A stretch of 64,000 nucleotides of DNA, taken from the IMG/VR virus record IMGVR_UViG_3300025011_000019, positions 1 to 64,000 of that record; one strand, written 5' to 3'. The DNA is from a virus. The notes below the pieces were generated by a model. It was not told where the DNA came from and did no database searches. It was given only the letters and a program-made list of their open reading frames with translations. A program made the position numbers and the translations under genes. The stretch's first letter is position 1; each line of letters opens with the position of its first letter. Positions 46,107-63,363 of the stretch are shown here, in pieces.

Positions 46107-46124
46107 TGATCTTTGAAAACTGAA
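46107..46124 (+). promoter_or_regulatory. rRNA-operon-type boxA antitermination-like element
   Basis: TGATCTTTGAAAACTGAA in a ~540-nt ORF-free leader, preceded by the hairpin CTAGG-AAAACAA-CCTAG. Confidence 0.6.
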
Positions 46125-46765: not shown

Positions 46766-47049
46766 AAATTAAAATGTAGGCATTAACAAAAGCATATCCC
46801 TTAAGCAAAAAAAGAGAGAATTAACCTAAAACATTCTACTAAATCCCTTCAGTTTATTCATTATTACTATTTAATCATAACAATTGCTTTAAACTTGCAT
46901 AACAAAATTAAAATGCAGGTTGTTGTAATTTAATGCTAAATTGTCTATGCTATAGGCTGAAGGGATTGAATTTTCCATAAGGTGTGAGCTTATAACAATT
47001 GGAGTTTAGACCTTGTGCAAAAATTTAAGAATGAAAGAGGTTGTGTAAA

Positions 47050-47238
47050 ATGGCAAAGGTAAGAGAATTAAAACTTTACACTTTAGAAACTACTAATTAT
47101 CTCGCAGTGGTAGAAGCTCATACAAAAGCTGAAGCCATCGAAAAAAGTGATTTCACAAAAAGTCAAGTAATTGTCAGGGAGGCCACGGAAGAAGATATAA
47201 ACTATTTAAAAGCAATGGGAGGGTATATAGTTAGGTAA
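47050..47238 (+). CDS. Hypothetical protein
   Basis: AAAGAGG SD. Confidence 0.65.
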   Translation: MAKVRELKLYTLETTNYLAVVEAHTKAEAIEKSDFTKSQVIVREATEEDINYLKAMGGYIVR

Positions 47239-47382
47239 AATCATAATCCATTAAAAAAGACAATTTATGGGAAATGAAGTGCTTTATAATACTGGATTAT
47301 AGAGCACTTTGAATTTTATTAAACTATGTACTAAGCAAAAATAATTAGTTTGTATTTTAGTAAAATAAAAGGAGTGGTCAGA

Positions 47383-47637
47383 ATGACAAAAGATACCATT
47401 CAGGCACTAAATGAAAACAAACGATTCACTATAACCATGATGAATAAAAATGGTTATACAGTCATGAGAAAATTTTCTACCATTCAATCCTGCAAGACCT
47501 TTGCAAAACATTTTCCTTTGTCTGTATTCTTCGCTTGGATTTATGACAAGTCAAAGGACGCTATAATAATGCAAAATAATTATAGCGACAAGTTATATAA
47601 ATGTAACGAAGAATCATTTATTCCTTATTGGTGTTAG
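47383..47637 (+). CDS. Hypothetical protein
   Basis: AAAGGAG SD. Confidence 0.65.
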   Translation: MTKDTIQALNENKRFTITMMNKNGYTVMRKFSTIQSCKTFAKHFPLSVFFAWIYDKSKDAIIMQNNYSDKLYKCNEESFIPYWC

Positions 47638-47731
47638 CCCCTTAAAGTTTGTTTGCCTCTAGCAACAAAATCAAAATAACAGCATAAAAATTTTGTTGCT
47701 AGTGTCGAGTAAATTAGAAGGAGTGGTTAAA

Positions 47732-48955
47732 ATGGCAAGAAGAAAACCAACCACAATGTCATGGAATATCAAGCAAATTAACACTATGATCAATAAGGGA
47801 ACAATCCTCTTTACTCATCCTTTACAACGTCCTACGGGCCAATGGGAGCAAGCAGACAAATCCTTATTAGTTGATTCTCTTTTAACCCTCTATTGTCCAG
47901 ATTGTTTCGCCATCAAGGAAAAGACAGAGAATGGAAATACATACAGCATCATTGATGGTCTTCAAAGGTTATCGACTATTCATGAACTTCTAGCAGACAA
48001 ATTAACTATGACAGAATTAGAAGACTTTTGCCTAGACGCTACCGGAAATGAAGTCTATAACATTTCAGGCAAAACATGGTCACAATTTCCCGAAGAAGTT
48101 CAAAACGAAATAATGGGTTATACTTTAGGTCTTAAAGTTTTTGAAATCGAAGAGGGAGACGACGAAGAGTCAATCATTGAAGAAATCTTTTACCGCCTTA
48201 ATAACGGTAAAGGAATGTCACTAGAGCATAAAGCACTAGTAAAAGCTAGTCATAAGGTGCAAAAGTTTGTTCACAGAATTGCGACAGAACACAAATTATT
48301 CACCAACAGTGCAAAGTATTCTGAAAAAGCGGTTAAAAAATCAGATATTCCAATGACCATTATGCAAGCAATTCTTCTTATCTCAAGGTTAGATTATCCT
48401 AGCCTAGCAGCAAAGGACATTGAACTGGTATTCTCAAAGAATGAAATAACAGATCAAGTCCTAGCACTTGTGGAAAAATCCTTTGACTTAATTGCTACAG
48501 CATTTCCAGAACAGCATAAATTTGTTACAAAAATCAACATTGTTTCAATGGCCTATTTGTTTGCTAATAGTCTTAATCATGATCAAACAATTGTTAATCT
48601 TTTGAGATATGTTAATCAAGAGATTAAACCAGGGGACGCTTATAAAGGATATACTGGCTCTGGTAATGTTAAAAAAGAAAAAACCATTAATAGACTTAAA
48701 GGTATTCTTAAATTATGCGGTGTTAATGACATTGGATTACCGATAGTGGAAGAAGTCGAAGTTGAGCAAAAATTAGAACAAGAAATAATTGTTGAAGAAC
48801 AACCGCAACAAACTGAAAACCTTGATTCTGCTATAACAGTGACCCCAGAAGAGTTCAGCGAAAATCAAGAAGAGCAACCGGAAGAAAATGAAACATCAGA
48901 CCAAAACCAAGAAGATGCTCAAGCAATTCTAAACATCATTGACAATGTTGCTTAA
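47732..48955 (+). CDS. DUF262 (ParB/GmrS-like) domain protein with acidic tail
   Basis: LQR..GQW, SLLVDSLL, IIDGLQRL, IFYRLNNG. Confidence 0.85.
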   Translation: MARRKPTTMSWNIKQINTMINKGTILFTHPLQRPTGQWEQADKSLLVDSLLTLYCPDCFAIKEKTENGNTYSIIDGLQRLSTIHELLADKLTMTELEDFCLDATGNEVYNISGKTWSQFPEEVQNEIMGYTLGLKVFEIEEGDDEESIIEEIFYRLNNGKGMSLEHKALVKASHKVQKFVHRIATEHKLFTNSAKYSEKAVKKSDIPMTIMQAILLISRLDYPSLAAKDIELVFSKNEITDQVLALVEKSFDLIATAFPEQHKFVTKINIVSMAYLFANSLNHDQTIVNLLRYVNQEIKPGDAYKGYTGSGNVKKEKTINRLKGILKLCGVNDIGLPIVEEVEVEQKLEQEIIVEEQPQQTENLDSAITVTPEEFSENQEEQPEENETSDQNQEDAQAILNIIDNVA

Positions 48956-49054
48956 TCATTAAATAATTGTATCTGGAAGCTAGACAATAACAATGTTAAC
49001 TTGCTATTGTCTAGCATTCGAGGTAAAGTTATTATATTCAAAGGAGGTCAAACA

Positions 49055-49363
49055 ATGCAATTCTTAACCCACTACGAGCGTTATAACGTGTCAAAATGGG
49101 AGCAACGTCAAATCATGCCACAATCTAATTTTATAGCCTTAAACAATTCATTTATGAACCACAATTCTTCTCTAATCGGTTTCCAAATTGAACATGAAGA
49201 AAAACGAGTACATTATTCAGTTAGTAATATGTTTCTCGAAAGGTTGCAAGCTCAATTCCCTGATAACTGGCTTGATATTCTAAATGACGGTATGGTTTAT
49301 GAGTTCAAACAGTGGGAGCGTGGTATTTATTCTAATATGTATCAAGAGGGATTTTTTAGTTAG
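49055..49363 (+). CDS. Hypothetical protein
   Basis: AAGGAGG SD. Confidence 0.7.
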   Translation: MQFLTHYERYNVSKWEQRQIMPQSNFIALNNSFMNHNSSLIGFQIEHEEKRVHYSVSNMFLERLQAQFPDNWLDILNDGMVYEFKQWERGIYSNMYQEGFFS

Positions 49364-49536
49364 TAAAATACATTACCTAAACTAAAAAATAATTATTTAG
49401 AGAATTAGCCTTAATTCTCTTCTAAGTTCATGAAAAAAGTGATATAATATATATCATAAGGCTATGAAATTAGAAGGCAATTGTGGAAAATATCTATAAC
49501 AGTTGGCCTAGAATAAATCAAAGGAGCGTGTATATT

Positions 49537-49932
49537 ATGCAAAAAGTAACTGAAGCAGAATTCCAAAACCTTTTAAACCAAAATAACTATTCTTTAAAAG
49601 GTCTTGAAAATTATGAAATTGTTCCAGACTTCACACCTGTCGGAAACAAAATTATTGATTCATGTTTACATTCAAGGGTTAAAGATTGTGGAAGTACATT
49701 ATACTTTGGAGGCTATACTAATTCAGGTTGTTACTCATTCCAAATTATGGTCAATAAATCCTATAACACGACTGCACTATTCGTTGACGGATACAGGGCA
49801 GTATTGACTGACAATGATTCCCATAACATTTACACTTATTGCGAAGGTGATATTTCTGTTGAATCGTTCGGAAGTATCGAAGAATATCAAGTAGGAATTG
49901 CTGAAGCACTAGAATTTTATGAGGTTAATTAA
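49537..49932 (+). CDS. Hypothetical protein
   Basis: AAGGAG SD; TYCEGDI motif. Confidence 0.7.
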   Translation: MQKVTEAEFQNLLNQNNYSLKGLENYEIVPDFTPVGNKIIDSCLHSRVKDCGSTLYFGGYTNSGCYSFQIMVNKSYNTTALFVDGYRAVLTDNDSHNIYTYCEGDISVESFGSIEEYQVGIAEALEFYEVN

Positions 49933-49952
49933 TAAAGGAGAGTGGACGCTAA

Positions 49953-50201
49953 ATGATCACAATTATTAAATTAACCCATACCCTAGATGAAATCAAACCT
50001 AAATTTGATAACTGGAATGAACTTTCCAAAACTCAAAGAGATTTTCTTGAATCCTATAACGAATTCAGAATAACAAATTATGGTCAAGAAATGCTAGTAT
50101 ATGAAGGAAGACAAATTATTGCTAGTTGTTCAACATCAATAACTTATCATGATAAAATAGTTATTGACAGCATATGGACAAAAGAAGGTAAAATATTATA
50201 A
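49953..50201 (+). CDS. Hypothetical protein
   Basis: AAAGGAG SD. Confidence 0.65.
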   Translation: MITIIKLTHTLDEIKPKFDNWNELSKTQRDFLESYNEFRITNYGQEMLVYEGRQIIASCSTSITYHDKIVIDSIWTKEGKIL

Positions 50202-50294
50202 CCATTCTTTATCTCGACAGTGGGCAGGTAACATTATAACAATAACAAATGTTATTTGCCTAGTTTCGAAATTAAGAAAAGGAAGTGTATTTTA

Positions 50295-50537
50295 ATGAAA
50301 AATTTTGTAATTAATAACGTGAATATGATTAAAGAAGATTTTTCGCAAATGATTAACTATGTAGGGTCAAGAGCTATAGCATTGTCCGAAGTAGAAGAAG
50401 GTATTGCAATTAATACTTCTAGCCCTTCAAACGAAAAAGATGTTCATAGTAGTATTGTGTTTTTCTTTGAAAAATGGAATAATGCTTATAAATTAGATTA
50501 TGAAAGGAAAGACATATTGATTACTTGGAGGGAATAA
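50295..50537 (+). CDS. Hypothetical protein
   Basis: AAAGGA SD. Confidence 0.6.
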   Translation: MKNFVINNVNMIKEDFSQMINYVGSRAIALSEVEEGIAINTSSPSNEKDVHSSIVFFFEKWNNAYKLDYERKDILITWRE

Positions 50538-50585
50538 CCCGACCAAACACGAATTTTAAGCTAAATATGAAAGGAAGTTTTTGGA

Positions 50586-50780
50586 ATGTATGAAATTAAT
50601 GTATCTTTAAACGGTTATCATTTATTTGCTACTCATGAAAGGTCTCTAACCAATGAAAATATGTTTAAACATGCGTTAGAAATTTTCAAAGAAAAATTTC
50701 CAGAATCAGAAGGTTATCAAATATCAGCTTCCTTATTGCAACCTAGAACTAGTAAAATATTAGATATTAATAAATTTTAA
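50586..50780 (+). CDS. Small hypothetical protein
   Basis: YEINVSLNGYHLFAT...KFPESEGY. Confidence 0.7.
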   Translation: MYEINVSLNGYHLFATHERSLTNENMFKHALEIFKEKFPESEGYQISASLLQPRTSKILDINKF

Positions 50781-50888
50781 CATGAAATCTAATTTTGATT
50801 GTATGGAAATAGGGCGAAGTGATATAACAATAACAGGACTTCGCCTTGATTCGAGACTATTAAAATTAGAAGGAGAGTGTTTTAGATT

Positions 50889-51326
50889 ATGAACGCAATG
50901 GCAGAAGCATTAAATAAGGCGCAAATAAAAGCAAATGATTTTGAGGATAAACAAGTCGATGAGAAAGCAATTGAAGCAGAAATGCAAATTGATTTTCTCG
51001 AAACATGGTTGAAATTACTTGAAAGAAATGCTTCTGAAAAGGAAAAGTATAACTTTGTGATAAAGCATGGTTTTGTATCAGTTTTACAATTTAACCTGCA
51101 TATGTCATGCATGGAAGATGTTCATAACCTGAAGGATATCTTAGATGATATTCGATATGATATTTCAGCCAGTGAAATTGCAGAACGTGAAAAAGAAATA
51201 ACAGAGAAAGAGGCAATGGCAAAGAATATCAAGAACTTGTTTTATTACAAAATGATTCTAAGGGGTTTAGGTAAAAAGGATATTACTCCTTATGGAGAGG
51301 ATATTTTGAAAAGAAAACTAACATAA
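50889..51326 (+). CDS. Hypothetical protein
   Basis: AAGGAG SD; terminator at 51343-51381. Confidence 0.7.
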   Translation: MNAMAEALNKAQIKANDFEDKQVDEKAIEAEMQIDFLETWLKLLERNASEKEKYNFVIKHGFVSVLQFNLHMSCMEDVHNLKDILDDIRYDISASEIAEREKEITEKEAMAKNIKNLFYYKMILRGLGKKDITPYGEDILKRKLT

Positions 51327-51483
51327 AACCAAACTTTTATATGACAGAGCGAGAAATAAAAATAATTTATCTCGCTCTGTGTGCTTTAATTATTCTCTAG
51401 ACCGTGATATAATGTAAATATAAAATATTACGGTTTGGAGAGCATTTAAAACTCTCTTAAAATCTAAAAGGAGCGTGTTACAT

Positions 51484-53751
51484 ATGTATTATGGAGATCA
51501 AAGAGAATCAATGGTCAATCTGTCTTATGCATTAGAAGGCAAAGGTTGGGAAATTTTTGGTTATAGTGCGGATCAATCTGATTCCCAGTCTGATTATTAT
51601 CATCCTGCATCATGGGACGGTATTGCTACTAAAAATGGCTTTGTTCTCTGTGTAGATATTAAAGATTATCAAGTTCAAAATTCAGGCAAAGGAGTCTATG
51701 AGTACACAAAAAATTATACAAATGTTTCAGATTATTCTAAAATTCAAAAACTCCAAGCACTAGCTAATGATTCGGCAGCGAGTCCAGAAGAAAAAGACAC
51801 AGCACTAAAATTTATCGAGAAACTACATAATAATCAAGAAATCAAAGATCAAGACCGCGAAGCAACAAGAGTTTTAAAATATACTTATCCTATATTCCAA
51901 GCAAATCCTCCTTCTTGTAATTGGCATGTCGAAAAAGATGGTGTAATTTTAGCTAAAGGAAAAGGAGCTTTCCAATTTTCAGACCTCCCCTATGACTATG
52001 ATTGTTCAACAGGTTTACAAAAAACATGGAGAAGTAGAGAATGGACACCGGATGAGAAAGAGCAAAAAGTTATTAACAAATTCTTATCATTCGTTGCAAA
52101 AATAAATAATGTTGCATCGGGTGTGGCTAACATGGGCGATGGAACAGAAGAAACAGAACAGGAAGGATTAGAAGCCGAAAAGAATTCTGGTTATGAAACC
52201 ATCACTGTAACTGAATATAAAAGCGAAATTCAGGCTAATGAGATTGAAACACCAGAAACTTTAATTGTTGGAATGCATTTCAAATTAAAGGCAAGCTTTA
52301 CGCACTGTAATTCAGGAGATATTTATGTAATTACCACAATTCGTGAGAATCAATATAACAACAAGTGGTATATTACAGCATCGAGAATGAACCGCAAACT
52401 TAACAAAGTGTTAACTGGCAGAGCAACAGCAAGCAATAATTTTGACTGTGAACTTGAAAAGCTTAATACTTGGATAAGTAAAAAATTTATTTCCATCGTC
52501 GAACTTGAGGAAGTAAAAACGCCTTATCAAGTACAAAAATGTGTAAAAATTACAAGGGATAAGACCACTAAACCAACCCAAAAGAAAACTAAAATTGAAG
52601 ACGAAAAGACTGAAAATCCAATAACACCAGACCATGAAGAATACCAAGATGAAGTCTTGAGTGCCGATATAAGCGACACAACATCAATTAATGAAGAATC
52701 AGCAACCGAATTTATTCAGGCTTCCAAACGTCAATTATATGCCTTATATATTGGTACTAAGATCAAGACCACTGACCTAGTAATTAGCAAAGAAAAAGCA
52801 GGAGAATTGATATCTAAGAGTATCAAAGGAATCAATATCACTGAAGAACTTCAGGCATTTATAAATGGGGAGACCTTTATAACAGAAGTCTCAGAACCAT
52901 TGCAGGAATTAGAAGAGATTAAACAAGAGGAGGAAATTAAAATAATGGAAAATGTTGATAATATACTCAGTAAATTTGATGAAATAGAGGTGAAAAATAG
53001 TTCGCGTATCTCCTTAGATGATCAAACATTCTGCGAGGATCAAGAAAGAAACTACAATGAATTTATAAAATTCTCCAATGACTACATAAATTATCTAAAT
53101 GAAAATTCCTTATCAAATACATTCTATAACAGCGAGTCTTTAGTCAATGAGATGAATAAAACCAGAGATATTAAAAAGGATATGTTTATTTCTAAAGTGG
53201 TAAATTATTTTAGAGATAAATACAAAGTAACGCTAAAAAGCGAACCGATTCAAAAGAAGTATGATATTTCTGTAAAGTATGATATAATTGTCGATGAAGT
53301 CATAGAACAACTGGGAGGTTATAACTTCATTGATAAAGCAGAAAAAGAGATTAAAGACGAATTCAAAAACACTTTAAGACATGACAAAATTAAACTTAAA
53401 AATAAAAAACTATCAATTGAAAGTTTTTTTCAAACTGATTACTTTAGCATTAAGTATGGAACATATGAAGTTGGATATGGAAGCGATGAAAAGTTTTATA
53501 AGTTGTTCAAGGCCATGTCTCACTTTTTATATGAGAGTAACGAGAATCTTTTTGATAATGTATATAGCACTATAACTAGACAAAAAGATGATGATGTATT
53601 TAAAACTCATGAGATAATTGGCAAGGATATTATCAAAACTTTGAAAGTATATAAAAATGGAAAAATTGATTTAGAATTTAGCAACTCGGATCATATGCGA
53701 AAGTTTGCGAAGGATTACTGCGGATACACAGGTGATATTGCAGCCAAGTAA
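51484..53751 (+). CDS. Multi-domain polyvalent-type protein
   Basis: GWEIFGY..DQSD...DYY.PASWDGIA.KNG N-domain; DUF2786-like IQKLQALA..EK..A; C-domain paralogous to the next gene. Confidence 0.7.
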   Translation: MYYGDQRESMVNLSYALEGKGWEIFGYSADQSDSQSDYYHPASWDGIATKNGFVLCVDIKDYQVQNSGKGVYEYTKNYTNVSDYSKIQKLQALANDSAASPEEKDTALKFIEKLHNNQEIKDQDREATRVLKYTYPIFQANPPSCNWHVEKDGVILAKGKGAFQFSDLPYDYDCSTGLQKTWRSREWTPDEKEQKVINKFLSFVAKINNVASGVANMGDGTEETEQEGLEAEKNSGYETITVTEYKSEIQANEIETPETLIVGMHFKLKASFTHCNSGDIYVITTIRENQYNNKWYITASRMNRKLNKVLTGRATASNNFDCELEKLNTWISKKFISIVELEEVKTPYQVQKCVKITRDKTTKPTQKKTKIEDEKTENPITPDHEEYQDEVLSADISDTTSINEESATEFIQASKRQLYALYIGTKIKTTDLVISKEKAGELISKSIKGINITEELQAFINGETFITEVSEPLQELEEIKQEEEIKIMENVDNILSKFDEIEVKNSSRISLDDQTFCEDQERNYNEFIKFSNDYINYLNENSLSNTFYNSESLVNEMNKTRDIKKDMFISKVVNYFRDKYKVTLKSEPIQKKYDISVKYDIIVDEVIEQLGGYNFIDKAEKEIKDEFKNTLRHDKIKLKNKKLSIESFFQTDYFSIKYGTYEVGYGSDEKFYKLFKAMSHFLYESNENLFDNVYSTITRQKDDDVFKTHEIIGKDIIKTLKVYKNGKIDLEFSNSDHMRKFAKDYCGYTGDIAAK

Positions 53752-53781
53752 CCAAAAAATTAAAAATTGGAGTGATTTATT

Positions 53782-54609
53782 ATGTTAAATTTATTGAGTA
53801 AATTCGATGAAATCAAAATTGAGAATGTAAACAGAATTGATGAGGAAGATAAAAAATTCTGTGAGATGTTCAACAAAATTTATGATGAAACATTAGTATG
53901 CTATAGGAACACCTTAGAAAGTTTAATATCCTTATATAATGAACAAATCCTGTTAGTAAAAAACAGTTATGATTTATGTATTTCAAAATATGGCGGTGGA
54001 AGGAACGATCTTAGTATTGACGGTGTTAAAAATGGCATTTTTCACGTAAAGGAAAATTTTATCAGTAAGATTTGTTATTATTTTAGCAGAAAATATAATG
54101 TTACTATTGATCACAGTAAAATTTATGAAAGATACAAAGATATTGAACTCCCCTACGGTAAACAAGAGAACAGAGATAAGACACTTAATATAAATTTGCT
54201 TGAATATGTACATATTGATTATAACATTATTTTGGATGAGATATTCGCTCAATTAAATGGTTTTAGTTTTCTTGAAAAGGCAATTGATGAAATTAAGCAA
54301 AAAGCAAAAATACCCTTACGTTGGTACGAACATCGTAAGTATTGGAATTATGAGGTTAAAGGTAAAACGATCAAATTTAGAACAAGTATAGATGATATTA
54401 AGTCAGCACTATATTTTTATGATAATAATGAAACACAGCTAATTGACTGCTACACTCATAACAAAGTTGATGATTATACAAGTTATGATAATGGTAATAC
54501 GAATATTAAGTTTATTAATTCTTCTTATGCTCTTGATTTTGCAAAAAGATATTTAGGATATATTGAAATGACTGAGGAGCAAAGAGAAGCATTTAAGAAA
54601 AGTTGTTAA
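53782..54609 (+). CDS. Paralogue of the C-terminal domain of 51484..53751
   Basis: Shared LSKFDEI, FISK...YF..KY.VT, KA..EIK, Y.NG....F and FAK.Y.GY blocks. Confidence 0.75.
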   Translation: MLNLLSKFDEIKIENVNRIDEEDKKFCEMFNKIYDETLVCYRNTLESLISLYNEQILLVKNSYDLCISKYGGGRNDLSIDGVKNGIFHVKENFISKICYYFSRKYNVTIDHSKIYERYKDIELPYGKQENRDKTLNINLLEYVHIDYNIILDEIFAQLNGFSFLEKAIDEIKQKAKIPLRWYEHRKYWNYEVKGKTIKFRTSIDDIKSALYFYDNNETQLIDCYTHNKVDDYTSYDNGNTNIKFINSSYALDFAKRYLGYIEMTEEQREAFKKSC

Positions 54610-54631
54610 TTGAATTAAGGAGTTGAAGAGA

Positions 54632-57600
54632 ATGAAATACGCTATAACAAATGTTGTAATACCTCAAGAAAGACGCAAGGAAATAAATTCTAAATGTTTA
54701 TATGTTGTTGAAAATAATTTAGATGTATTAACTCAACAAGATGTATTTTCTTGCTATTCTGGCGAGGGTGGACTTCATGGTTTAGAATTTAAAGAGTTTG
54801 ATAACTATCATTCGTTCTCTGAAGCGAAAAAAGAAATAGAACTTGGAGCCTTCTTTACTCCTGCTACAATATCGAAATTTATGGCTGATTGTATAAAACC
54901 AAGTAATCAAGATTTAATTTGTGACATGACTTGTGGCGCAGGTTCATTCTTTAATTATCTTCCAGTCGAACACAATGTCTATGGTAATGAAATTGATATT
55001 AAATCTTATAAAGTTTCTAAATATCTTTATCCAAAAGCAAATATTTCTAATGATGATATTAGAAATTATGCACCAGACGTTAGATTCGATCTAATTCTTG
55101 GAAATCCTCCATATAACTTAAAATTAAGAGTAGGTAAAGAAGAATACCTTTCACAACTTTATTATTGTATGAAAGCTTCAGAACTTCTTAAACCTGCCGG
55201 ATTCATGGTATTAATTGTTCCTAATTCATTTCTAGCAGATACCTTCACAGATTCGGGAATGATTAAAACTATTAACAAATCATTTAATTTCATATGTCAA
55301 TTCGATCTTCCTACAAATGCCTTTAAATCAGTAGGGGTTGAAAACTTTGCAACAAAAATAATGTTCTTTCAAAAACAATCAGAACATTTATTGACTATGC
55401 CTTATACCACTGATAAAATTCCTAACATTTTCATTACAGATGCATATGCTGAGATCATACATAATCAATATCTACTTCCATACATAACTAAAAAGGAATC
55501 CTTAAAAGGCAAATTATTCTTTGAAAATGTACATAATAGTGATACTCAAGAGAATGCAGAATTTCAGTATAAAGTAAAAAAGATGTTATTTGCAATTAAA
55601 CAACATCCTGCAATTAATTCATATTATGGAAAATGCTTATCTTATTTAGATAAATTTAATACTCAGAAAATGCCAGAGGGTATGAAGTATGAGGAATGGT
55701 CTAAGGTTAAAATCACTGAGAAAAAAGTATTATCTTATCTTAAAAGAACATTGGCAAAACAATCTAAAAATGAACGTGATGAGATCCGATTAGTTAAAAC
55801 ATCTTATTCAATCAAGTTAAAGGGATATTCCCAAAAGAACAAAGTGTTTCTGTCTAAATATGCAGGAGAAAAGAATATCTCTATTAATGATATGATTATT
55901 TCTGGGAAATATCCTTTTGAAGATAAAACATATCAAAAATTAATTGATAAAAAAGTCAATGATTATAACTTTAATAGTTCTAATTTGCGTGAACTTCTTG
56001 CTAATTTAAACATATCTAATTTCCTTAATGAGTTTTCTCTTACAGATACATCCACAGGGGAAATATTACGCCTTAACGACATTCAAAAAAGTGACATGAA
56101 TAATATCATTCAAAGACGTTATAGTGTCCTTAATTACAGTATGGGTGCTGGTAAAACTCCATGTGGTATTGCATGGTATAAATATCTATTGTCCCAAAAT
56201 AAAGTCAGAAATGTATTTATTGTATCGGCAGCACTAGGAATAAATTTAACATGGGATGTAAAACTGAATGATTACAAAGAGGATTATATTAAAATTAAAT
56301 CATTAAAAGACATTAATTCTATTAAACCTAAACAAATTGTAATATTATCATTCAATATGTTAATTAAATATCAAAGACAAATTAAAAAGTTTATTAAAAT
56401 GCAATCTCAAAAAGTGGCTTTGATTGTAGATGAATCAGACGAATTGACTAATGATAAGTCACAAAGAACAAAAGTTACTTTAGATTGTTTTAGAAAGGTA
56501 AATTATAAACTCTTAACTACTGGAACTACTACACGTAATAATATTAATGAATTATACAGTCAACTTGAATTACTTTATAATAATTCTGTTAATATGTTGT
56601 GTGAAGCTGATTATATTTATAAATTCAATAAGGAGAAAGAACTTAAGGAAGAATACAATGAACATTATATGAACCCCTTTCCTGCTTATCATGGGAAAAA
56701 GTTGTTTGTTGCTAGTTTTTCACCATCTAAAATAAGTGTATTTGGTATTAAAAAAGATTGTCAGGACATTTATAACATTGAATATCTTCAGAAAATTATT
56801 GAAAAAACAATTATTACACGTAAATTTCAGGAGGTAGTTGGGCGTAAAATTTATGAGATTATTACTCATAGGATTAAACAAAATTCAGCAGAAAGAGAAG
56901 TTTATAAAGTAATTATGGAACAGTTTTATGAAATGCTTTATTTGTTTAGAAGTACTGGGAACAGTCGTAAAGACGCTATGTTACGTCTAATTAGGCAAAT
57001 TCAATTATTAATTAAATCAACTTCAACACCAGAACAATTTAAGGAATATGCTAGTACCGAAACGCCTAATAAATACTTAAAAATCTTTAGCTTATTAGAC
57101 AAGTGGAAAAATGAAAAAGTAGCAATTGGTACAGTATTCCTAGATACTGCAAATAGTTATTATTCTAAACTTCGTCAAAGGTATCCAGAACGAGAGATAT
57201 TTATGATTCAAGGCAATGTATCCTTTACTAAAAGAAAGAGCATTATAAGCCAATTTGAGGCAACTAGTAATGGAATTTTAGTTAGCACTCAACAAAGTTT
57301 AAAATCCAGTGTCAATATTCCAACTTGCGATAAGGTTATTATTGAGTCCATGCAATGGAATATACCAAAGATTAGTCAGTATTATTTTAGGTTTATTAGA
57401 TTCAATTCAACGCAAAATAAGGAAGTACACTTCGTAACCTACGATCACACGATTGAGCAAAATTTAATGGCCTTATTAATGGCGAAAGAAAGAATTAATG
57501 AGTATATCAAAACATTAGATTTTCAAGACCAAGAGGAAATTTATGAGGAATTTGACGTAGATTTGGGCATACTCGACGCACTAATAGAAAAGGGAGAAGA

Positions 57601-57649
57601 TGAGAATGGACATGTAAAGTTGACATGGGGAGAACAAAAGATAGTATAA
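54632..57649 (+). CDS. N6-adenine methyltransferase / SNF2 helicase fusion (DarB-like antirestriction)
   Basis: GAFFTP, DMTCGAGSF, GNPPY; MGAGKT, DESD, TGT, helicase C-lobe. Confidence 0.85.
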   Translation: MKYAITNVVIPQERRKEINSKCLYVVENNLDVLTQQDVFSCYSGEGGLHGLEFKEFDNYHSFSEAKKEIELGAFFTPATISKFMADCIKPSNQDLICDMTCGAGSFFNYLPVEHNVYGNEIDIKSYKVSKYLYPKANISNDDIRNYAPDVRFDLILGNPPYNLKLRVGKEEYLSQLYYCMKASELLKPAGFMVLIVPNSFLADTFTDSGMIKTINKSFNFICQFDLPTNAFKSVGVENFATKIMFFQKQSEHLLTMPYTTDKIPNIFITDAYAEIIHNQYLLPYITKKESLKGKLFFENVHNSDTQENAEFQYKVKKMLFAIKQHPAINSYYGKCLSYLDKFNTQKMPEGMKYEEWSKVKITEKKVLSYLKRTLAKQSKNERDEIRLVKTSYSIKLKGYSQKNKVFLSKYAGEKNISINDMIISGKYPFEDKTYQKLIDKKVNDYNFNSSNLRELLANLNISNFLNEFSLTDTSTGEILRLNDIQKSDMNNIIQRRYSVLNYSMGAGKTPCGIAWYKYLLSQNKVRNVFIVSAALGINLTWDVKLNDYKEDYIKIKSLKDINSIKPKQIVILSFNMLIKYQRQIKKFIKMQSQKVALIVDESDELTNDKSQRTKVTLDCFRKVNYKLLTTGTTTRNNINELYSQLELLYNNSVNMLCEADYIYKFNKEKELKEEYNEHYMNPFPAYHGKKLFVASFSPSKISVFGIKKDCQDIYNIEYLQKIIEKTIITRKFQEVVGRKIYEIITHRIKQNSAEREVYKVIMEQFYEMLYLFRSTGNSRKDAMLRLIRQIQLLIKSTSTPEQFKEYASTETPNKYLKIFSLLDKWKNEKVAIGTVFLDTANSYYSKLRQRYPEREIFMIQGNVSFTKRKSIISQFEATSNGILVSTQQSLKSSVNIPTCDKVIIESMQWNIPKISQYYFRFIRFNSTQNKEVHFVTYDHTIEQNLMALLMAKERINEYIKTLDFQDQEEIYEEFDVDLGILDALIEKGEDENGHVKLTWGEQKIV

Positions 57650-57794
57650 GGCATAGAGGAAATGAACTAAAATGGTTTGTTTCCTCTCTTTGTTCCCTAT
57701 TATAAAGTAAAAAATAATTATTTATCTATTGCAATTTGTTTAGTTTTCATATAAAATAAGCAATAAGAAGCAAACTAGAAGGAGCGTGTAACTT

Positions 57795-58151: not shown

Positions 58152-58227
58152 TCCAATAAACCTTACATTTCCAATACTAAAATGGTATAATATGTATAAC
58201 AAAATCAACTAGAAAGAGGGAATTAAA

Positions 58228-58386: not shown

Positions 58387-58471
58387 GTTGATTGAAGGTT
58401 ACACACCAATAATTCTATAACAAATTGGCGTGTGACATTGAACCAAAATATTGTAGAAAGAAGGAATTATA

Positions 58472-58825: not shown

Positions 58826-58910
58826 GTTGAAATCTGAGGTATTAGTATAACAATAACGATATGATCCCTCGACTTGAGTCTATAAATTAATTAGAAAGAG
58901 GGAATATATT

Positions 58911-59174: not shown

Positions 59175-59200
59175 ATCAATTAAGAAAGAAGGAATTATTT

Positions 59201-59386: not shown

Positions 59387-59499
59387 ATTAATTGCATATG
59401 GAGAATAGGCAATAACAATAGTACCATAACAGAACCGTTATAACAGGTTGTTGCCTTCCTTTCGAGGTAAAGTTGACTAAATATGAAGGAGTGGAAATT

Positions 59500-59661: not shown

Positions 59662-59695
59662 TAAACAATAATTTTAAATGAAAAGGAGAAAAATT

Positions 59696-59887: not shown

Positions 59888-60018
59888 TGTCTAGGGGCAT
59901 TTAAAGCCCTTCTGAGCGTCAATAATGCTATAACAGTCATATATATCCATAACAGCAGAGTAAGGGACGTTCAGAAGAGTTCTGAAGACTCTAAAAATAA
60001 ATTGTTGGAGGTTATTTT

Positions 60019-60357
60019 ATGAAAATATTGCAATTTGATTATCTTCAGGCAGAATATGATGGAGAAGTGCTAAAAGATTTTCTTATCGAACAGTTACCAC
60101 GCTTTATAAATTGTGAACAAATGCAAACATACATAAAATCATCCGATGGATTTTGGCAAGATGTTAGAAATGAAATAACAAAGCAAAAAAGAGTTAAAAG
60201 GTTCAGTGAATTAGAAGATTATAAATGGATATTAGATTACCTTAATTTTTTAGCTGACAGAGATTTAGCAAAGGCAATAAACAAAGGATTGAACACAAGA
60301 AATAAAAAGTATGCGGATCTTGAAAAATTCTTTATTAAATATTCAAAGGCAGCATGA
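60019..60357 (+). CDS. Hypothetical protein
   Basis: GGAGG SD. Confidence 0.65.
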   Translation: MKILQFDYLQAEYDGEVLKDFLIEQLPRFINCEQMQTYIKSSDGFWQDVRNEITKQKRVKRFSELEDYKWILDYLNFLADRDLAKAINKGLNTRNKKYADLEKFFIKYSKAA

Positions 60358-60397
60358 ATGTACCATTTGCTCAGGTTAACAAAAGGAGGAATAACAA

Positions 60398-60604
60398 TTG
60401 ATTATTAATATTGATCCTTATCAAAATACCTTTTATTCTCGTAAAATCAATAATAATCTATACAGACATGAGGGCAGACAGAATACAATTGAATTTGTGA
60501 TTGATAGTAAAACTCCAAAGACTCAAGAAGAAATTCTCGATTTTTTAGAATCAAAGTCAATAGATTATCTATTAAATAGAGAAGGAACTATCATAGATAT
60601 TTAA
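60398..60604 (+). CDS. Small hypothetical protein
   Basis: AAGGAGG SD + TTG. Confidence 0.6.
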   Translation: MIINIDPYQNTFYSRKINNNLYRHEGRQNTIEFVIDSKTPKTQEEILDFLESKSIDYLLNREGTIIDI

Positions 60605-60726
60605 AGAGTTTATGCTCTTTATCTTAAATCTATCATAACAGAAGCCCTATATAGGTTGATGGATTTAAGATAAAGGATATAAATCTAATCATTATATCCT
60701 AAAATAAAATCAAAGGAGGTAACAAA

Positions 60727-60834
60727 ATGAGCAAATTAAAATTACTCCAAGAATTCAAAAACATTTGCGATACTCATTCTATTCCATTCACTTTTAAGTC
60801 ATTTGACATGTTTCTTACTCATATTTCTAAATAA
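60727..60834 (+). CDS. 35-aa peptide (not in the ORF track)
   Basis: AAGGAGGT SD; MSKLKLLQEFKNICD. Confidence 0.55.
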   Translation: MSKLKLLQEFKNICDTHSIPFTFKSFDMFLTHISK

Positions 60835-60894
60835 TCTTACATATTCTATATCAACTATAAACCAAAAATAAAATTATTGAAAGAAGGTAATCAA

Positions 60895-61185
60895 ATGCAA
60901 AAACCTAAAAATATCAAAAACTTAACCCATTCTGCTTCAAAACTTAATATCTTATACTTAGGCAAAGAAATTGTTTACACAGGCACAGGACACTCCTTAA
61001 GACCTTATCGTGGAGAAATCATTAACATTGCTTATTACTCAGACCTTGAACCTGTTCCATATGCAGAAATCAAGTTAAAGATATGGAACAGCCGGACAGT
61101 AACTAAAATTCTTCCATTATCTGATGTTGTTTTGGTATCTTCTTTGAAGAAAACTAAAACTAAGAAATCTAAGATAGCAGCATAA
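60895..61185 (+). CDS. Small basic SH3-like protein
   Basis: AGAAGGT SD. Confidence 0.6.
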   Translation: MQKPKNIKNLTHSASKLNILYLGKEIVYTGTGHSLRPYRGEIINIAYYSDLEPVPYAEIKLKIWNSRTVTKILPLSDVVLVSSLKKTKTKKSKIAA

Positions 61186-61341
61186 TTCAATATCTTTTCT
61201 ATGGACACTGTAAAGCGTAAAATAATTATAACAATTGATTCCCATACGTTGTACAGTGTAATTCTTAAAAGGTATTAGTTAAACTCAATGCTAATATCTC
61301 AACTATTGTATAACAAAATCAAAAGGAGGACAGGAGATATC

Positions 61342-61671
61342 ATGTCAAAATTATCTAATGTAGAAATCATTGCAATTGAAGCATCTAAAAAAGAATATAT
61401 TTATAATGGTGAGAATATTTTTACTTTTGCTCAGTGGGAAAAGAGAGGATTCGGAGTTAAGAATGGGCAAAAAGCATTTATCAAGACTAGATTAATGAGT
61501 CAGGGAGAAAATCCAAGATCGATCCCAGTATCGCTTTATACCATCGAACAGGTAAAATATAACGAAGACTTATGGAATGGCAGACCTCGCAAACCACGAC
61601 AAATAAAAGATGAAATTGGTTATTATCTTGTAAGCAAGCAACGTACCCAGAGGGAAGTTATTATGGTATAA
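61342..61671 (+). CDS. ArdC N-terminal-like ssDNA-binding protein
   Basis: FTFAQWEKRGFGVKNGQKA...LYTIEQV matches the ArdC-N pattern TFxQWxxxGxxVxxGxKA. Confidence 0.65.
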   Translation: MSKLSNVEIIAIEASKKEYIYNGENIFTFAQWEKRGFGVKNGQKAFIKTRLMSQGENPRSIPVSLYTIEQVKYNEDLWNGRPRKPRQIKDEIGYYLVSKQRTQREVIMV

Positions 61672-61751
61672 TCTTGTAAATGTCATAACAGCCATAACAC
61701 GGACGTTCGAGAGGTTCAGAAGATATTTTTAAATTATTAGGAGGAATTATT

Positions 61752-62003
61752 ATGCAAAGTGGTTTACAGTCTAAAAATGAGTATATTCTATATCGTTCTA
61801 TGTATAACAATGAACTTCACAATGCTATAATGGATAAGGATGTTCAAGCGATTGAAATATTATTAGATGGATTAACAAAAGCACATTTGAAGAATTATGA
61901 TTTTAGCCTATATGATTCAAATACTTTTATTGATATTGATTATGTTTACAATGAGCACGTAAAACAAATTGAAGAATTGGAGGCATATTGTCGTGGTTTA
62001 TAA
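61752..62003 (+). CDS. Hypothetical protein
   Basis: AGGAGG SD. Confidence 0.65.
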   Translation: MQSGLQSKNEYILYRSMYNNELHNAIMDKDVQAIEILLDGLTKAHLKNYDFSLYDSNTFIDIDYVYNEHVKQIEELEAYCRGL

Positions 62004-62139
62004 ATTCAAGCAAGCAATTGTAAATGGTGATCAATATATTTATGGATTTGGATTTTATTTGTCAATTGTGAAGTGGTATAGGTAATTATCCCATAAGTCT
62101 ATTATTTAACTTATTCTAAATTAGAAAGGAAATGATAAA

Positions 62140-62583
62140 ATGAAATTTGCAAAATATTATGATGTTACAAGTAAAATGAATCAACTAATTGATAAAGGTG
62201 AATTATTCTCCTATGCAAAAGACTACTATAAGAAGTTATTTATATGTATGGATACCAATGACTTTTGGATTAGTAGAGTGTTAGAGGGATATAACAGTGA
62301 GTATGACCAGGAACAGGGTAAATGGCTAATCGAGAGAGAAAAGATTGATAAATATGCTTTTATTGATTTCCTCTCAGAAAAGACTGATAAAAAGTATGAG
62401 GTTAACGACAGACATCAAAGAAAAGATATTATTGATAAAATACCAGTAGACAAAGTAATTAAATACCTAATATTAATGGATGATGATAGAGGACTTGAAG
62501 GTTGGGACAGTCTTGAATGTGATAGTTTAGAAGAAGTTATAGAAGCATTAGATGGTGGATTTGGAATTGAAGTATTGACATAA
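62140..62583 (+). CDS. Hypothetical protein
   Basis: AAAGGA SD; ends ALDGGFGI. Confidence 0.7.
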   Translation: MKFAKYYDVTSKMNQLIDKGELFSYAKDYYKKLFICMDTNDFWISRVLEGYNSEYDQEQGKWLIEREKIDKYAFIDFLSEKTDKKYEVNDRHQRKDIIDKIPVDKVIKYLILMDDDRGLEGWDSLECDSLEEVIEALDGGFGIEVLT

Positions 62584-62646
62584 GAAAATTAGCATGAAAG
62601 CAAGCTTACTAGAAAGCAGAATTAAATTAAGGGAGAGTGTATTAAT

Positions 62647-62856
62647 ATGTTAGCAAGAACATTTGAACCATTTGACATGGAATCTTTTATTGAGTATGTG
62701 GAAAGATTGTTTGAAATATGGGACAGAATGGTTAAAAGAAATCAAAGAAATGATTTCTCCATTGGAGGCATTTTTAATGGTTTTAATGTAGTAGTTGATA
62801 GTAATTCAACAGTTGATTCTATAAAGTTAGCTTGGGTTAATTATTGGAAGGAATAA
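62647..62856 (+). CDS. Small hypothetical protein
   Basis: GGGAG SD. Confidence 0.6.
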   Translation: MLARTFEPFDMESFIEYVERLFEIWDRMVKRNQRNDFSIGGIFNGFNVVVDSNSTVDSIKLAWVNYWKE

Positions 62857-62958
62857 ATTAACTGGTCTGATCCAGTATAAAACGCCTTAAGCTCAGAGCG
62901 TTAGCAGGGTTCATAACAATCCTGCTAGGTGGTATCAAAAAATAGGAGGTGCAATAAT

Positions 62959-63075
62959 ATGACAAAAGTGGTATGCCCAAACTGTAAAACTAGTTTTGAA
63001 AATTTTGAAATGAACATTAACCTAGAATCAGGTGAAGTAGAGTTCTTTTGTCCTGCTTGCGGAGAGAGTCTATAA
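62959..63075 (+). CDS. 38-aa zinc-ribbon peptide (not in the ORF track)
   Basis: AGGAGGT SD; CPNC...CPAC. Confidence 0.7.
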   Translation: MTKVVCPNCKTSFENFEMNINLESGEVEFFCPACGESL

Positions 63076-63116
63076 AAAGTAAAACTTAACGGAGTGAAGA
63101 AAGGAGTTAATTTAAA

Positions 63117-63254
63117 ATGAACGAGTATAAAGTTGAAAAGAAACCACTAACAAAGAAAGAATATTTTCAAACACTTTCAGGCAATTTGGTTACATCAGAC
63201 GATCTTAACAAAATGTATAACAATTACCTTATGGGATTCTATGGTTATTATTAA
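63117..63254 (+). CDS. 45-aa hypothetical protein
   Basis: AAAGGAG SD. Confidence 0.55.
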   Translation: MNEYKVEKKPLTKKEYFQTLSGNLVTSDDLNKMYNNYLMGFYGYY

Positions 63255-63363
63255 TCTGTGCTAGTGATTTAAGCCCATATTCGCTATAACAGCAGAGCAT
63301 ATGGGTTTGTGGGTTTATATCATAGTATTGGTTACTAAATTAAATCCAAAGGAGAGTGAATTA

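What the first reader, a model, noticed from the sequence alone, without database searches (positions are those of the whole stretch)
46842..63308. About 15 intergenic hairpins with unrelated stems all presenting AUAACA: candidate undescribed RNA-level control system of the early polycistron
Seen directly on the sense strand, in gaps shortly upstream of SD sequences: 46842-967 (2 copies), 46976-47017, 47659-702, 48979-49015, 49475-509, 50221-262 (loop exactly ATAACAATAACA), 50811-847 (2), 58398-436, 58837-870 (ATAACA+ATAACG), 59407-456 (3 copies at 14-nt period), 59909-977 (2), 60617-675, 61205-259, 61672-712 (2), 62901-928 and 63271-308. Stem sequences differ and often need G-U pairs, which points to RNA. 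The hexamer is conserved, mostly in or at the edge of the loop. Several stems are followed by TCGA(G) and some are preceded by ATTGYAT..GGA. I did not see such hairpins in the 33-45 kb cassette zone; they begin right after the boxA leader. Inference: multivalent sites for one RNA-binding factor, such as an N/boxB-like antiterminator, a translational regulator, or a sequence-specific processing/decay nuclease that times anti-defence gene expression. The cognate protein is not identifiable here.
Basis: partly seen in the sequence, partly recalled or inferred. Interest (0 to 1): 0.88.

Follow-up and report, generated by a model that had tools for sequence, protein, structure and literature searches.

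The report
AUAACA hairpin-loop signal in phage early operon
A large Clostridium-type phage marks the transcripts of its early, anti-defence gene block with the six-letter word AUAACA, often shown at the tip of RNA hairpins between genes, and removes that word from the rest of its genome; this points to an undescribed sequence-specific control of early messages whose reader protein is still unknown.

Summary
The window is the first 64 kb of a 146-kb SPbeta/c-st-like phage record.

- **Enrichment.** Plus-strand ATAACA is the top over-represented hexamer between genes at 46.8-64.2 kb (26 seen, 3.1 expected). It is also selected inside genes there (23 seen, 7.1±2.4 expected from synonymous-codon resampling).
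- **Depletion.** It is purged at 33-46 kb (1 seen, about 12 expected) and 72-146 kb (13 seen, 46-58 expected).
- **Hairpins.** Twelve of the 16 listed hairpins beat at least 198 of 200 shuffles. Intergenic copies sit at the apex of stable hairpins in 39% of cases, against 7% for other intergenic positions. The hairpins fold better on the plus strand.
- **Flank.** About half carry a 3' TCGAG.
- **Ribozymes.** One hairpin is the P3 stem of a genuine pistol ribozyme. Two relatives that share the motif carry pistol or hammerhead ribozymes in equivalent gaps.
- **Known families.** No Rfam family fits the other hairpins.

Best reading (about 45%): an RNA-level recognition code for a sequence-specific binder or endonuclease that processes or shuts off the early operon, in the manner of T4 RegB/RegA. 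Phage MazF-like nucleases are candidates, but co-occurrence does not support them. A strand-specific DNA signal remains a serious rival. The scan has noted ribozyme-punctuated phage operons before on other DNA.

The parts
45913..45941 (+). Sigma-A-type promoter-like site ahead of the leader
   Evidence: TTGACT-17-TAAAAT, 10 of 12 matches; consensus match only
46107..46124 (+). rrn-type boxA-like word in the roughly 540-nt leader
   Evidence: GATCTTTGAAAACTG read directly. Its likeness to the Firmicute rrn boxA is from memory and was not tested.
46889..46925 (+). Hairpin; ATAACA straddles the stem-loop edge (second copy at 46877)
   Evidence: dG -8.9, z -3.3
46976..47017 (+). Hairpin with ATAACA in the loop
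   Evidence: dG -16.6, z -5.3, 4 G-U pairs
47659..47709 (+). 13-bp hairpin with an 18-nt loop holding ATAACA, followed by TGTCGAG
   Evidence: z -5.8; sequence
48962..49033 (+). Long composite hairpin: ATTGTAT..GGAAG lower stem, ATAACA at the upper stem/loop edge, 3' TTCGAGG. Paralogue of 59393 and orthologue of the one in L134.
   Evidence: dG -28.1, z -7.3. One stem pair reads A-U here, G.U in L134 and G-C in the 59393 paralogue.
49475..49509 (+). Weak hairpin downstream of an internal promoter; ATAACA partly paired
   Evidence: z -2.1
50208..50268 (+). 15-bp hairpin whose loop is exactly ATAACAATAACA, flanked by CTCGAC and TTTCGAA
   Evidence: dG -20.4, z -5.8
50796..50862 (+). Hairpin with two ATAACA in a 17-nt loop; ATTGTATGGAA on the 5' side and TTCGAGA on the 3' side
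   Evidence: dG -19.6, z -5.0
58196..58201 (+). Unstructured copy just after an extended -10 (TGGTATAAT); homology with relative L134 ends exactly here
   Evidence: Alignment A2
58398..58436 (+). 12-bp hairpin with ATAACA in a 13-nt loop
   Evidence: z -4.4
58835..58880 (+). ATAACAATAACG in a weak hairpin, followed by TCGACTTGAG
   Evidence: z -0.8, structure not significant
59393..59472 (+). Composite hairpin with three ATAACA at a 14-nt period and 3' TTCGAGG
   Evidence: z -2.2; paralogue of 48962 with a loop insertion
59909..59977 (+). 12-bp stem closing a large loop with two ATAACA
   Evidence: dG -19.1, z -4.0
60617..60675 (+). 22-bp hairpin with ATAACA at the loop edge
   Evidence: dG -22.1, z -6.4
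61205..61259 (+). Hairpin whose apical 7-nt loop is ATAACAA
   Evidence: dG -16.6, z -4.8
61678..61712 (+). Two ATAACA, 9 nt apart, followed by TTCGAGA; stem not significant
   Evidence: z +0.2
62861..62934 (+). Pistol self-cleaving ribozyme; its P3 hairpin (62901-62928) carries CATAACA as loop
   Evidence: RF02679, 55.3 bits against a gathering score of 34.5, full length
63271..63312 (+). Hairpin with ATAACA in or at the loop
   Evidence: z -2.8
47732..57649 (+). Coding copies of ATAACA inside the early genes (GmrSD_N/DUF262 protein, 755-aa protein, methylase-SNF2 helicase), with no local structure
   Evidence: 23 seen against 7.1±2.4 over the coding DNA of 46.4-64.3 kb; frames 0 and 1 used equally; 0 of 24 at hairpin apices; domains

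Best explanation
AUAACA (extended Y-AUAACA-R) is a cis-acting recognition word on the sense RNA of the early, anti-defence gene block.

Proposed mechanism:
- The block is read from sigma-A-type promoters through a boxA-bearing leader as long polycistronic RNA.
- Between cistrons the word is displayed single-stranded, often in two or three copies, at the tip of stable hairpins that lack U-tracts. Inside genes it is written in by codon choice.
- A sequence-specific factor reads it. This would be either an endoribonuclease or a tightly binding RNA protein, probably phage-encoded and made after the first genes.
- The factor cuts or silences these messages, giving intercistronic processing and timed shut-off of the early regulon.
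- Genes that must stay expressed have been purged of the word.
- Self-cleaving ribozymes do the same intercistronic cutting at some junctions of this phage and its relatives.

Shown: the selection pattern, the structures and the ribozymes.
For: 1. Intergenic enrichment is 26 seen against 3.1 expected, the top hexamer. Single-mismatch variants are not enriched, so the word is read precisely.
2. Positive selection in coding DNA of the block: 23 seen against 7.1±2.4. In relative G001: 35 against 17.5±3.7.
3. Purifying selection elsewhere on sense strands: 9 seen against 22.4±4.1 at 72.5-146 kb, and 0 against 3.6 at 33-46 kb. ATAACA is among the four most depleted hexamers there. Depletion this strong suggests the word is harmful in other messages, as expected of a cleavage or repression signal.
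4. Apex placement in hairpins (odds ratio 8.4, P = 4e-6), with 12 of 16 hairpins at z <= -3.3.
5. Plus-strand folding is favoured, with G-U pairs. One stem pair reads A-U in hairpin 48962, G.U in its L134 orthologue and G-C in the 59393 paralogue.
6. The motif never lies in the terminator-to-promoter spacers (47239-47382, 51327-51483, 57650-57794, 62004-62139).
7. It forms the P3 loop of a bona fide pistol ribozyme. Relatives with the motif have a hammerhead or pistol in equivalent gaps.
8. In G001 and L136 the word often abuts the Shine-Dalgarno sequence, as in ATAACAGGAGG.
9. Multiple copies occur at variable spacing (6, 9, 14, 19 nt), which fits a multivalent binder.
10. Clustered ribozymes that flank anti-restriction genes in prophages are a published precedent for intercistronic cutting (PMC3088659).
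Against: - No reader protein is identified.
- No RNA data could be obtained.
- Plus-DNA-strand ATAACA is also depleted where genes run on the minus strand: G000 1-30.5 kb, 4 seen against 13.7±2.6; G001 36-91 kb, 8 against 23.1±3.7. A purely sense-RNA model does not predict this.
- Coding copies show no structure, so the hairpin is not required for selection of the word.
- The phage MazF-like candidates fail a co-occurrence test. Three phages whose long-form MazF is 49-54% identical to that of G001 show no ATAACA enrichment upstream, whereas G000's own copy is only 31% identical.
- No covariance model could be built, because the stems do not align.
Confidence: 0.45

Rival explanations
1. The word is a strand-specific DNA signal. 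ATAACA on the plus DNA strand, exposed in extruded or single-stranded hairpins, would be read by a polar DNA process such as stepwise genome entry, priming or single-strand initiation, nicking, or a translocase. It would therefore be tolerated only in the first-expressed block.
For: In G000 the plus strand is purged everywhere outside 46-72 kb whatever the gene orientation, and the minus strand is near neutral everywhere. The same antisense depletion is seen in the minus-strand block of G001. The block encodes proteins typical of DNA-entry counter-defence: a DarB-like methylase-helicase, a weak ArdC-N match, DUF2786/DUF7168 and GmrSD_N. G-T pairs are also tolerated in single-stranded DNA.
Against: In G001 the plus-strand gene blocks outside the early region are not depleted (12 seen against 14.8; 19 against 16.4). 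One copy is the loop of an RNA ribozyme. The motif abuts ribosome-binding sites in relatives. It is absent from untranscribed spacers. Tailed phages inject double-stranded DNA, and no HUH nickase or dedicated primase was linked to the block.
Confidence: 0.2
2. The hairpins are ordinary intercistronic processing or stabiliser structures, such as host RNase III or RNase Y sites or 3'-end protectors, as in T7 and SP82 early RNA. ATAACA would then be a secondary feature, for example a leftover of a duplicated spacer family or a host-factor enhancer.
For: Several hairpins are long and imperfect, with 19-29 pairs and internal loops. Two are paralogues. RNase III sites in SP82 early mRNA are a known precedent (reference 19 in PMC4838370). 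No phage RNase III was found, so a host enzyme would be needed.
Against: RNase III does not read loops. The word is selected in coding DNA and purged genome-wide. It recurs on unrelated stems in close relatives and in phages only 43-56% identical in protein sequence. Many stems are too short (9-13 bp) for RNase III.
Confidence: 0.12
3. The word marks recombination joints for shuffling of single-gene cassettes, like PeSLs of T4-type phages or attC-like folded sites.
For: Close relatives differ by whole small genes between conserved genes. One 45-nt block that is 98% identical ends exactly after TATAACA at 58201. One-sided homology pairs number 7 for ATAACA against a mean of 0.76 for control hexamers.
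Against: Most of the 7 one-sided pairs are explained by indels or offsets, and one control hexamer reached 6. Other homology breaks lie 20-60 nt from the word. The conserved word is in the loop, not at the stem base as in attC. Most hairpin gaps have no promoter and no U-tract, unlike PeSLs. No integron-type integrase is nearby. Coding copies and genome-wide purging are not explained.
Confidence: 0.08
4. The composite element (GGA internal loop, variable helix, AUAACA loop, 3' UCGAG) is a new self-cleaving ribozyme class standing in for hammerhead or pistol.
For: It occupies the same intercistronic slots as known ribozymes in this clade. About 20 semi-conserved nucleotides are present. No Rfam match was found.
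Against: Loop length (6-35 nt), copy number and position of the word vary freely, which is unlike a catalytic core. The flanks are present in only about half of the copies. The word works without any hairpin in relatives and in coding DNA.
Confidence: 0.05

Closest known systems
T4 RegB endoribonuclease and RegA translational repressor acting on early mRNAs
   Same: A short RNA word concentrated in early messages is read by a phage factor to shut off the early class. Later genes escape because they lack the word in the right context. In relatives the word lies next to ribosome-binding sites.
   Different: The word here is AUAACA, not GGAG or an AU-rich operator. It is shown in hairpin loops and written into coding DNA. 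No RegB homologue was found, although that search was uninformative. The comparison rests on textbook knowledge, not on a test.
Clustered self-cleaving ribozymes that punctuate prophage operons (Perreault et al. 2011, PMC3088659)
   Same: Same genomic niche: gaps between small early or anti-restriction genes on one long transcript. Pistol and hammerhead ribozymes are present in this clade.
   Different: Fifteen of the 16 loci match no ribozyme family, and they share a loop word rather than a catalytic core.
RNase III processing hairpins of T7 and Bacillus phage SP82 early RNA
   Same: Imperfect intercistronic hairpins without U-tracts in a host-transcribed early polycistron of a phage.
   Different: Those sites are defined by the helix, not by a loop word. 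They show no genome-wide enrichment and purging of a hexamer.
MazF/PemK sequence-specific mRNA interferases
   Same: These enzymes cut single-stranded RNA at 3- to 7-nt words that often contain ACA. G000 encodes two homologues and G001 and L136 one each. The G001 and L136 genes (for L136) lie just upstream of a DndB-like gene and the MrpR-type repressor gene; in G000 one further ORF intervenes.
   Different: Their specificity is unknown. The canonical Firmicute word TACAT is not skewed. Co-occurrence with the motif is not supported. MazF-like genes are common in phages.
PeSL regulatory cassettes of T4-type phages (Arbiol et al. 2010, PMC2839356)
   Same: Repeated short stem-loop modules lie between non-essential early genes whose content differs between close relatives.
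   Different: PeSLs combine a strong promoter with a terminator hairpin. Here most gaps have neither a promoter nor a U-tract, and the conserved part is the loop.
Lambda N/boxB nut sites
   Same: A hairpin loop is read on nascent RNA, with a boxA-like word in the leader.
   Different: There are dozens of sites instead of two, loops are variable and not GNRA-like, copies lie in coding DNA, and no N-like protein was identified.

Membership tests
Pistol ribozyme (Rfam RF02679), locus 62861-62934 | Full-length match to the covariance model above the gathering score, with P1, pseudoknot loop, P2, P3 and the GU cleavage dinucleotide | tested here: met
   55.3 bits against 34.5, model positions 1-68. 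Self-cleavage itself was not tested.
Any Rfam 15 family, the other 15 hairpin loci | A match at or near a family's gathering score | tested here: not met
   Only chance-level miRNA or snoRNA hits, E 0.04-10, far below the gathering scores
Lambda-type N/boxB antitermination site | Short stem with a GNRA-like pentaloop next to boxA, at one or two sites per operon | tested here: not met
   Loops are 6-35 nt with AUAACA, at 16 or more intergenic sites plus 23 coding copies
T4 RegB system | A RegB-family nuclease gene (PF10715) | tested here: inconclusive
   No match in G000, but the control genomes gave no hit either, so the search is uninformative
T4 RegB system | Target word GGAG within early Shine-Dalgarno sequences | tested here: not met
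   The selected word is ATAACA; AAGGAG enrichment reflects ordinary ribosome-binding sites
MazF/PemK toxin and its target word | A PemK-fold endoribonuclease encoded by the element | tested here: met
   G000 105819-106142 (84.8 bits) and 110209-110544 (65.3 bits); G001 116722-117069. The best matches in the Protein Data Bank are S. aureus MazF and B. subtilis EndoA.
MazF/PemK toxin and its target word | The enzyme cuts at the word, and the word co-varies with the enzyme | tested here: inconclusive
   Cleavage is not testable here. The co-occurrence test leaned negative: contigs with orthologues 49-54% identical lack ATAACA enrichment in the 6-10 kb upstream, whereas the contig with the 65% orthologue has it.
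RNase III processing site | About two helical turns of mostly paired RNA | tested here: inconclusive
   Met by 48962 (29 pairs), 60617 (22), 50796 (21) and 50208 (19). Not met by 46889, 47659, 58398 and 62896, which have 9-13 pairs.
PeSL cassette | A strong sigma-70 promoter joined to a terminator stem-loop | tested here: not met
   Motif hairpins lack U-tracts. Terminator-plus-promoter spacers are separate and free of the motif.
Integron attC site | Conserved inverse-core and core sites at the stem base, with an integron integrase nearby | tested here: not met
   The conserved word is in the loop. Stem bases vary apart from TCGAG in about half of the copies. Pfam scans of the block's proteins found no integrase.
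YonO (SPbeta late RNA polymerase) promoter | The sequence shared by the phi3T yonK-upstream region and the equivalent G000 region | tested here: not met
   The shared word there is AACATAAAAAYTTG, not ATAACA. YonO starts at one late promoter in SPbeta (PMC5467207).
SPBRE / MrpR operator of SPbeta | A 15-bp double-stranded operator in promoter regions | tested here: not met
   By its description (PMC10516654), SPBRE is a promoter operator found at about ten sites. The hairpin loci are intercistronic and strand-specific.

The most novel reading that the evidence does not exclude
The phage uses a private RNA code. AUAACA tags every message of the early anti-defence regulon for destruction or silencing by a phage-encoded, sequence-specific RNA reader. 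The rest of the genome has been recoded to be immune. This would be a self-directed RNA restriction that sets the early-to-late switch or enforces lysogeny, with hairpin loops and ribozymes as interchangeable cutting devices.
Probability: 0.22. Interest if true: 0.85.

Novelty: new variant of a known kind. Interest (0 to 1): 0.72.

Why it matters
Early anti-defence genes decide whether an infection succeeds, yet little is known of how large Firmicute phages time them.

- This is a clean, statistically strong case of a six-letter word that is both selected for in one temporal gene class and selected against in the others. It survives across phages with only 43-56% protein identity.
- It gives a direct experimental handle (one hexamer, one hairpin) for finding a new RNA-binding or RNA-cutting specificity.
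- It links the unexplained ribozyme punctuation of phage operons to a protein- or word-based alternative at the same positions.
- It offers a way to read temporal class from sequence alone in uncultured SPbeta-like phages.

Tried and rejected
- **DNA search of the phage collection.** A search with 7.9 kb of the block found nothing.
- **Phage D-1873 and high-GC gut contigs.** They share the methylase-helicase but show no motif enrichment.
- **Pattern scan of viral contigs for triple ATAACA.** It returned mostly chance hits and tandem repeats.
- **Apparent private words in relatives.** All were artefacts: ACCTTC in L137 is a pentapeptide-repeat gene, AGATAG in L144 is a tetranucleotide repeat, and ATTGAC in L143 is a set of promoter -35 boxes.
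- **Unpaired probability.** It does not separate the motif from other A-rich hexamers.
- **A loose stem-counting descriptor.** It is uninformative in this AT-rich DNA, because 34% of random positions qualify.
- **tRNA-Asn anticodon-loop pairing.** Rejected: the invariant first A and the A/G at +1 do not fit, and the only phage tRNA is Thr.
- **Antisense small RNA with a UGUUAU loop.** None was found. The CTGTTATA at 32485 lies in a stem.
- **Reverse strand as a TcdR/BotR-type -10 element (TGTTATA).** This lead came from memory. No -35-like word was noticed at the right spacing in the flanks printed; the spacing was not scanned systematically.
- **YonO promoter, SPBRE operator and N4-type hairpin promoter.** Rejected.
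- **Host-type MazF word TACAT.** Not skewed.
- **RegB, RNase III and RtcB genes.** Not found in the record.
- **Covariance model.** Not built. The sequence aligner registers only TAAC, not the unrelated stems.
- **Genome-collection scan with the 755-aa protein.** Found nothing.

Full report
**Context**

The window is bases 1-64000 of a single 146,043-bp virus record with 28.7% G+C. A YonO-type single-subunit RNA polymerase gene matches SPbeta-like Bacillus phages at 54% identity and Clostridium phage D-1873 at 62%. PHROG matches to PhoH, exonuclease, NAMPT and homing endonucleases confirm a large phage.

From about 33 kb onward the genes run on the plus strand. The block at 46.4-64.3 kb holds 33 mostly small ORFs of unknown family. 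It also encodes:
- a GmrSD_N/DUF262 protein;
- a 755-aa protein whose N-terminal domain is conserved in SPbeta-like phages;
- a 1005-aa N6-methylase/SNF2-helicase of the DarB kind;
- a weak ArdC-N match, with ORF6N and DUF2786/DUF7168 proteins just downstream.

This is the content expected of an early anti-restriction region. A promoter-like site at 45913, and a leader containing GATCTTTGAAAACTG, precede it. That word resembles the Firmicute rrn boxA; the resemblance is from memory.

**The observation**

Strand and location:
- Over the whole window ATAACA is not enriched (89 seen, 90 expected).
- It is sharply local and strand-specific: 48 plus-strand and 6 minus-strand copies at 46.8-64 kb.
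- In the full record the enrichment spans about 46-72 kb.

Enrichment in the block:
- Between genes there are 26 copies against 3.1 expected. This is the highest-scoring hexamer.
- Single-mismatch variants are not enriched. The flanks prefer a pyrimidine-rich 5' side (T at -1, C at -2, never G at -1) and a purine at +1.

Depletion elsewhere:
- At 72.5-146 kb there are 9 coding copies against 22.4±4.1 expected. At 33-46.4 kb there are 0 against 3.6.
- On whole-sequence Markov expectations these regions have 13 against 46-58 and 1 against 11-12.
- ATAACA is among the four most depleted hexamers of the 72.5-146 kb sense strand.

**Structures**

- Twelve of the 16 listed hairpins fold far better than dinucleotide shuffles (z -3.3 to -7.3). 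Three are marginal and two (58835, 61678) are not significant.
- Intergenic copies sit at the apex of a stable hairpin in 39% of cases, against 7% for other intergenic positions (P = 4e-6). Their surroundings are more stable, at -14.1 against -9.8 kcal/mol.
- Coding copies show no structure at all, 0 of 24.
- The hairpins are more stable on the plus strand (-240 against -181 kcal/mol summed; 33 against 19 G-U pairs).
- Hairpins 48962 and 59393 are paralogues. With the L134 orthologue, one stem pair reads A-U, G.U and G-C across the three copies. This is the classic compensatory pattern, and it selects for plus-strand pairing.
- About half of the hairpins are followed by T(T/G)TCGAG. All five intergenic TCGAG copies in the block lie there.
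- Several hairpins are preceded by ATTGYAT..GGA, which pairs with the 3' flank as a lower stem with a purine-rich internal loop.
- True terminators with U-tracts, and the promoter spacers, are separate and free of the motif.

**Known families**

Rfam identifies 62861-62934 as a full-length pistol ribozyme at 55.3 bits. The ATAACA hairpin at 62901-62928 is its variable P3 stem-loop. Nothing else in the block matches any family, even at permissive thresholds on short stretches.

**Relatives**

The 755-aa protein has homologues in several contigs.

- Two contigs at 93-94% protein identity (L134, L135) carry different small genes around the conserved core. They have further hairpins on unrelated stems, again with ATAACA loops and 3' TCGAG or TTGAG.
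- G001 (135 kb, 43% identity by tblastn, 56% over the N-terminal domain) has 59 plus-strand and 9 minus-strand copies in 21 kb. Many are in coding DNA (35 seen against 17.5±3.7) and many directly abut the Shine-Dalgarno sequence. It has a hammerhead ribozyme in one gap.
- L136/L146 (50% identity) shows the same pattern: 26 seen against 13 expected in the array, but 9 against 10-11 downstream of it. It has a pistol and a visible hammerhead core. Its pistol P3 loop lacks the word.
- More distant relatives show little or no enrichment. These are a Bacillus SPbeta-like prophage, L139, L140, L137 and D-1873.

The word is therefore a property of one subclade. Hairpin display is most developed in the lineage of this record.

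**Level of action**

Most evidence points to RNA:
- the sense-strand bias;
- pairing that needs G-U;
- absence of the word from untranscribed spacers;
- its use as a ribozyme loop;
- its contact with ribosome-binding sites in relatives.

One result does not fit. Where genes lie on the minus strand, it is again the plus-DNA-strand word that is depleted (G000 1-30.5 kb, 4 seen against 13.7±2.6; G001 36-91 kb, 8 against 23.1±3.7). The sense strand there is neutral or enriched. In G000 a plus-DNA-strand rule describes all blocks. In G001 it does not, because its plus-strand gene blocks at 1-35 and 112-135 kb are not depleted. I keep a DNA-level signal as the main rival.

**Mechanism**

Strong purging from other gene classes implies that the word is harmful when present in their messages. 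This favours a cleavage or repression signal over a mere enhancer. Concentration in the first-expressed genes then gives a timed shut-off, the logic of T4 RegB and RegA (comparison from established knowledge). Known clustered ribozymes that flank anti-restriction genes in prophages show that intercistronic cutting is a recurrent need of such operons (PMC3088659). RNase III sites in SP82 early RNA are another precedent (cited in PMC4838370).

The record has no detectable RegB, RNase III or RtcB. It does encode two PemK/MazF-fold proteins, at 105.8 and 110.2 kb, and G001 encodes one. Their nearest solved relatives are S. aureus MazF and B. subtilis EndoA.

A long form of about 200 aa is conserved in synteny directly after the small-gene array. 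In G001 and L136 it lies immediately before a DndB-like gene and the MrpR-type repressor gene. SPbeta biology already ties lysis-lysogeny control to MazF (PMC10516654; abstract of PMC10769878).

- Contigs whose long-form MazF is 49-54% identical to that of G001 show no ATAACA enrichment in the upstream array.
- G000's own long form is only 31% identical.
- MazF-like genes are also common in phages, and the canonical TACAT word is unbiased here.

They remain candidates only.

**Cassette shuffling**

Close relatives differ by whole genes. One shared promoter module ends exactly after TATAACA at 58201. A screen for one-sided homology gave 7 pairs against a control mean of 0.76, but most are explained by indels, and one control hexamer reached 6. 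The word may help recombination, as PeSLs do in T4-type phages (PMC2839356). This does not explain the coding copies or the genome-wide purging.

**Verdict**

The feature is real, strongly non-random and conserved in a subclade of SPbeta-like Clostridium-type phages. Apart from one pistol ribozyme it is not covered by any catalogued RNA family. Its most likely role is a sequence-specific RNA-level control (processing, decay or translational shut-off) of the early anti-defence operon.

Noticed in passing
window 62861-62934: Full-length pistol self-cleaving ribozyme between two small early genes. Related phages carry a pistol (L136 9880-9950) and hammerheads (L007 5018-5072; L136 about 7100-7165).
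   Followed up: yes
G000 105819-106142 and 110209-110544 (outside the window; L003 1762-2184 and 5861-6685): Two PemK/MazF-fold genes. The second has N- and C-terminal extensions. Long-form orthologues in five related contigs lie just before a DndB-like gene and the MrpR-type repressor gene.
   Followed up: partly
window 30650-32900: A 2.3-kb region without ORFs between the divergent gene blocks, with extreme strand composition: G/T-rich to about 31.5 kb, then A/C-rich from about 32.0 kb. It contains tandem TGTCGAA words (31516-31540) that look like Spo0A boxes. It may be an origin or partition region.
   Followed up: no
window 10080-10200, minus strand; L141 10340-10480: AACATAAAAAYTTG occurs twice upstream of a non-coding stretch in both this phage and Bacillus phage phi3T, at the place where SPbeta's YonO-dependent late transcript starts. 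This is a candidate YonO promoter word.
   Followed up: partly
window 13590-17222, minus strand: The YonO polymerase homologue is split into two ORFs (15567-17222 and 13590-14552). The phi3T gene is split too (L141 5821-7698 and 8114-8728). This is consistent with the group I intron noted by another reader.
   Followed up: no
window 47703, 49016, 50263, 50849, 59461, 61707: The TCGAG/TGTCGAG words 3' of the hairpins are one letter from the Spo0A box TGTCGAA. A sporulation-linked DNA role for this flank was not tested.
   Followed up: no
G000 72.5-146 kb, sense strand: AGATCT is almost absent (2 seen, 26 expected), as expected if the host has a restriction system for this palindrome.
   Followed up: no
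L144 5231-5304: A run of about 19 AGAT units directly before a ribosome-binding site in a related phage. This may be a phase-variable leader.
   Followed up: no
window 63963-63985: A small hairpin, CATAAAA/TTTTATG, whose loop TGTTA is complementary to part of the AUAACA word, in the gap just after the array. It may be chance.
   Followed up: no
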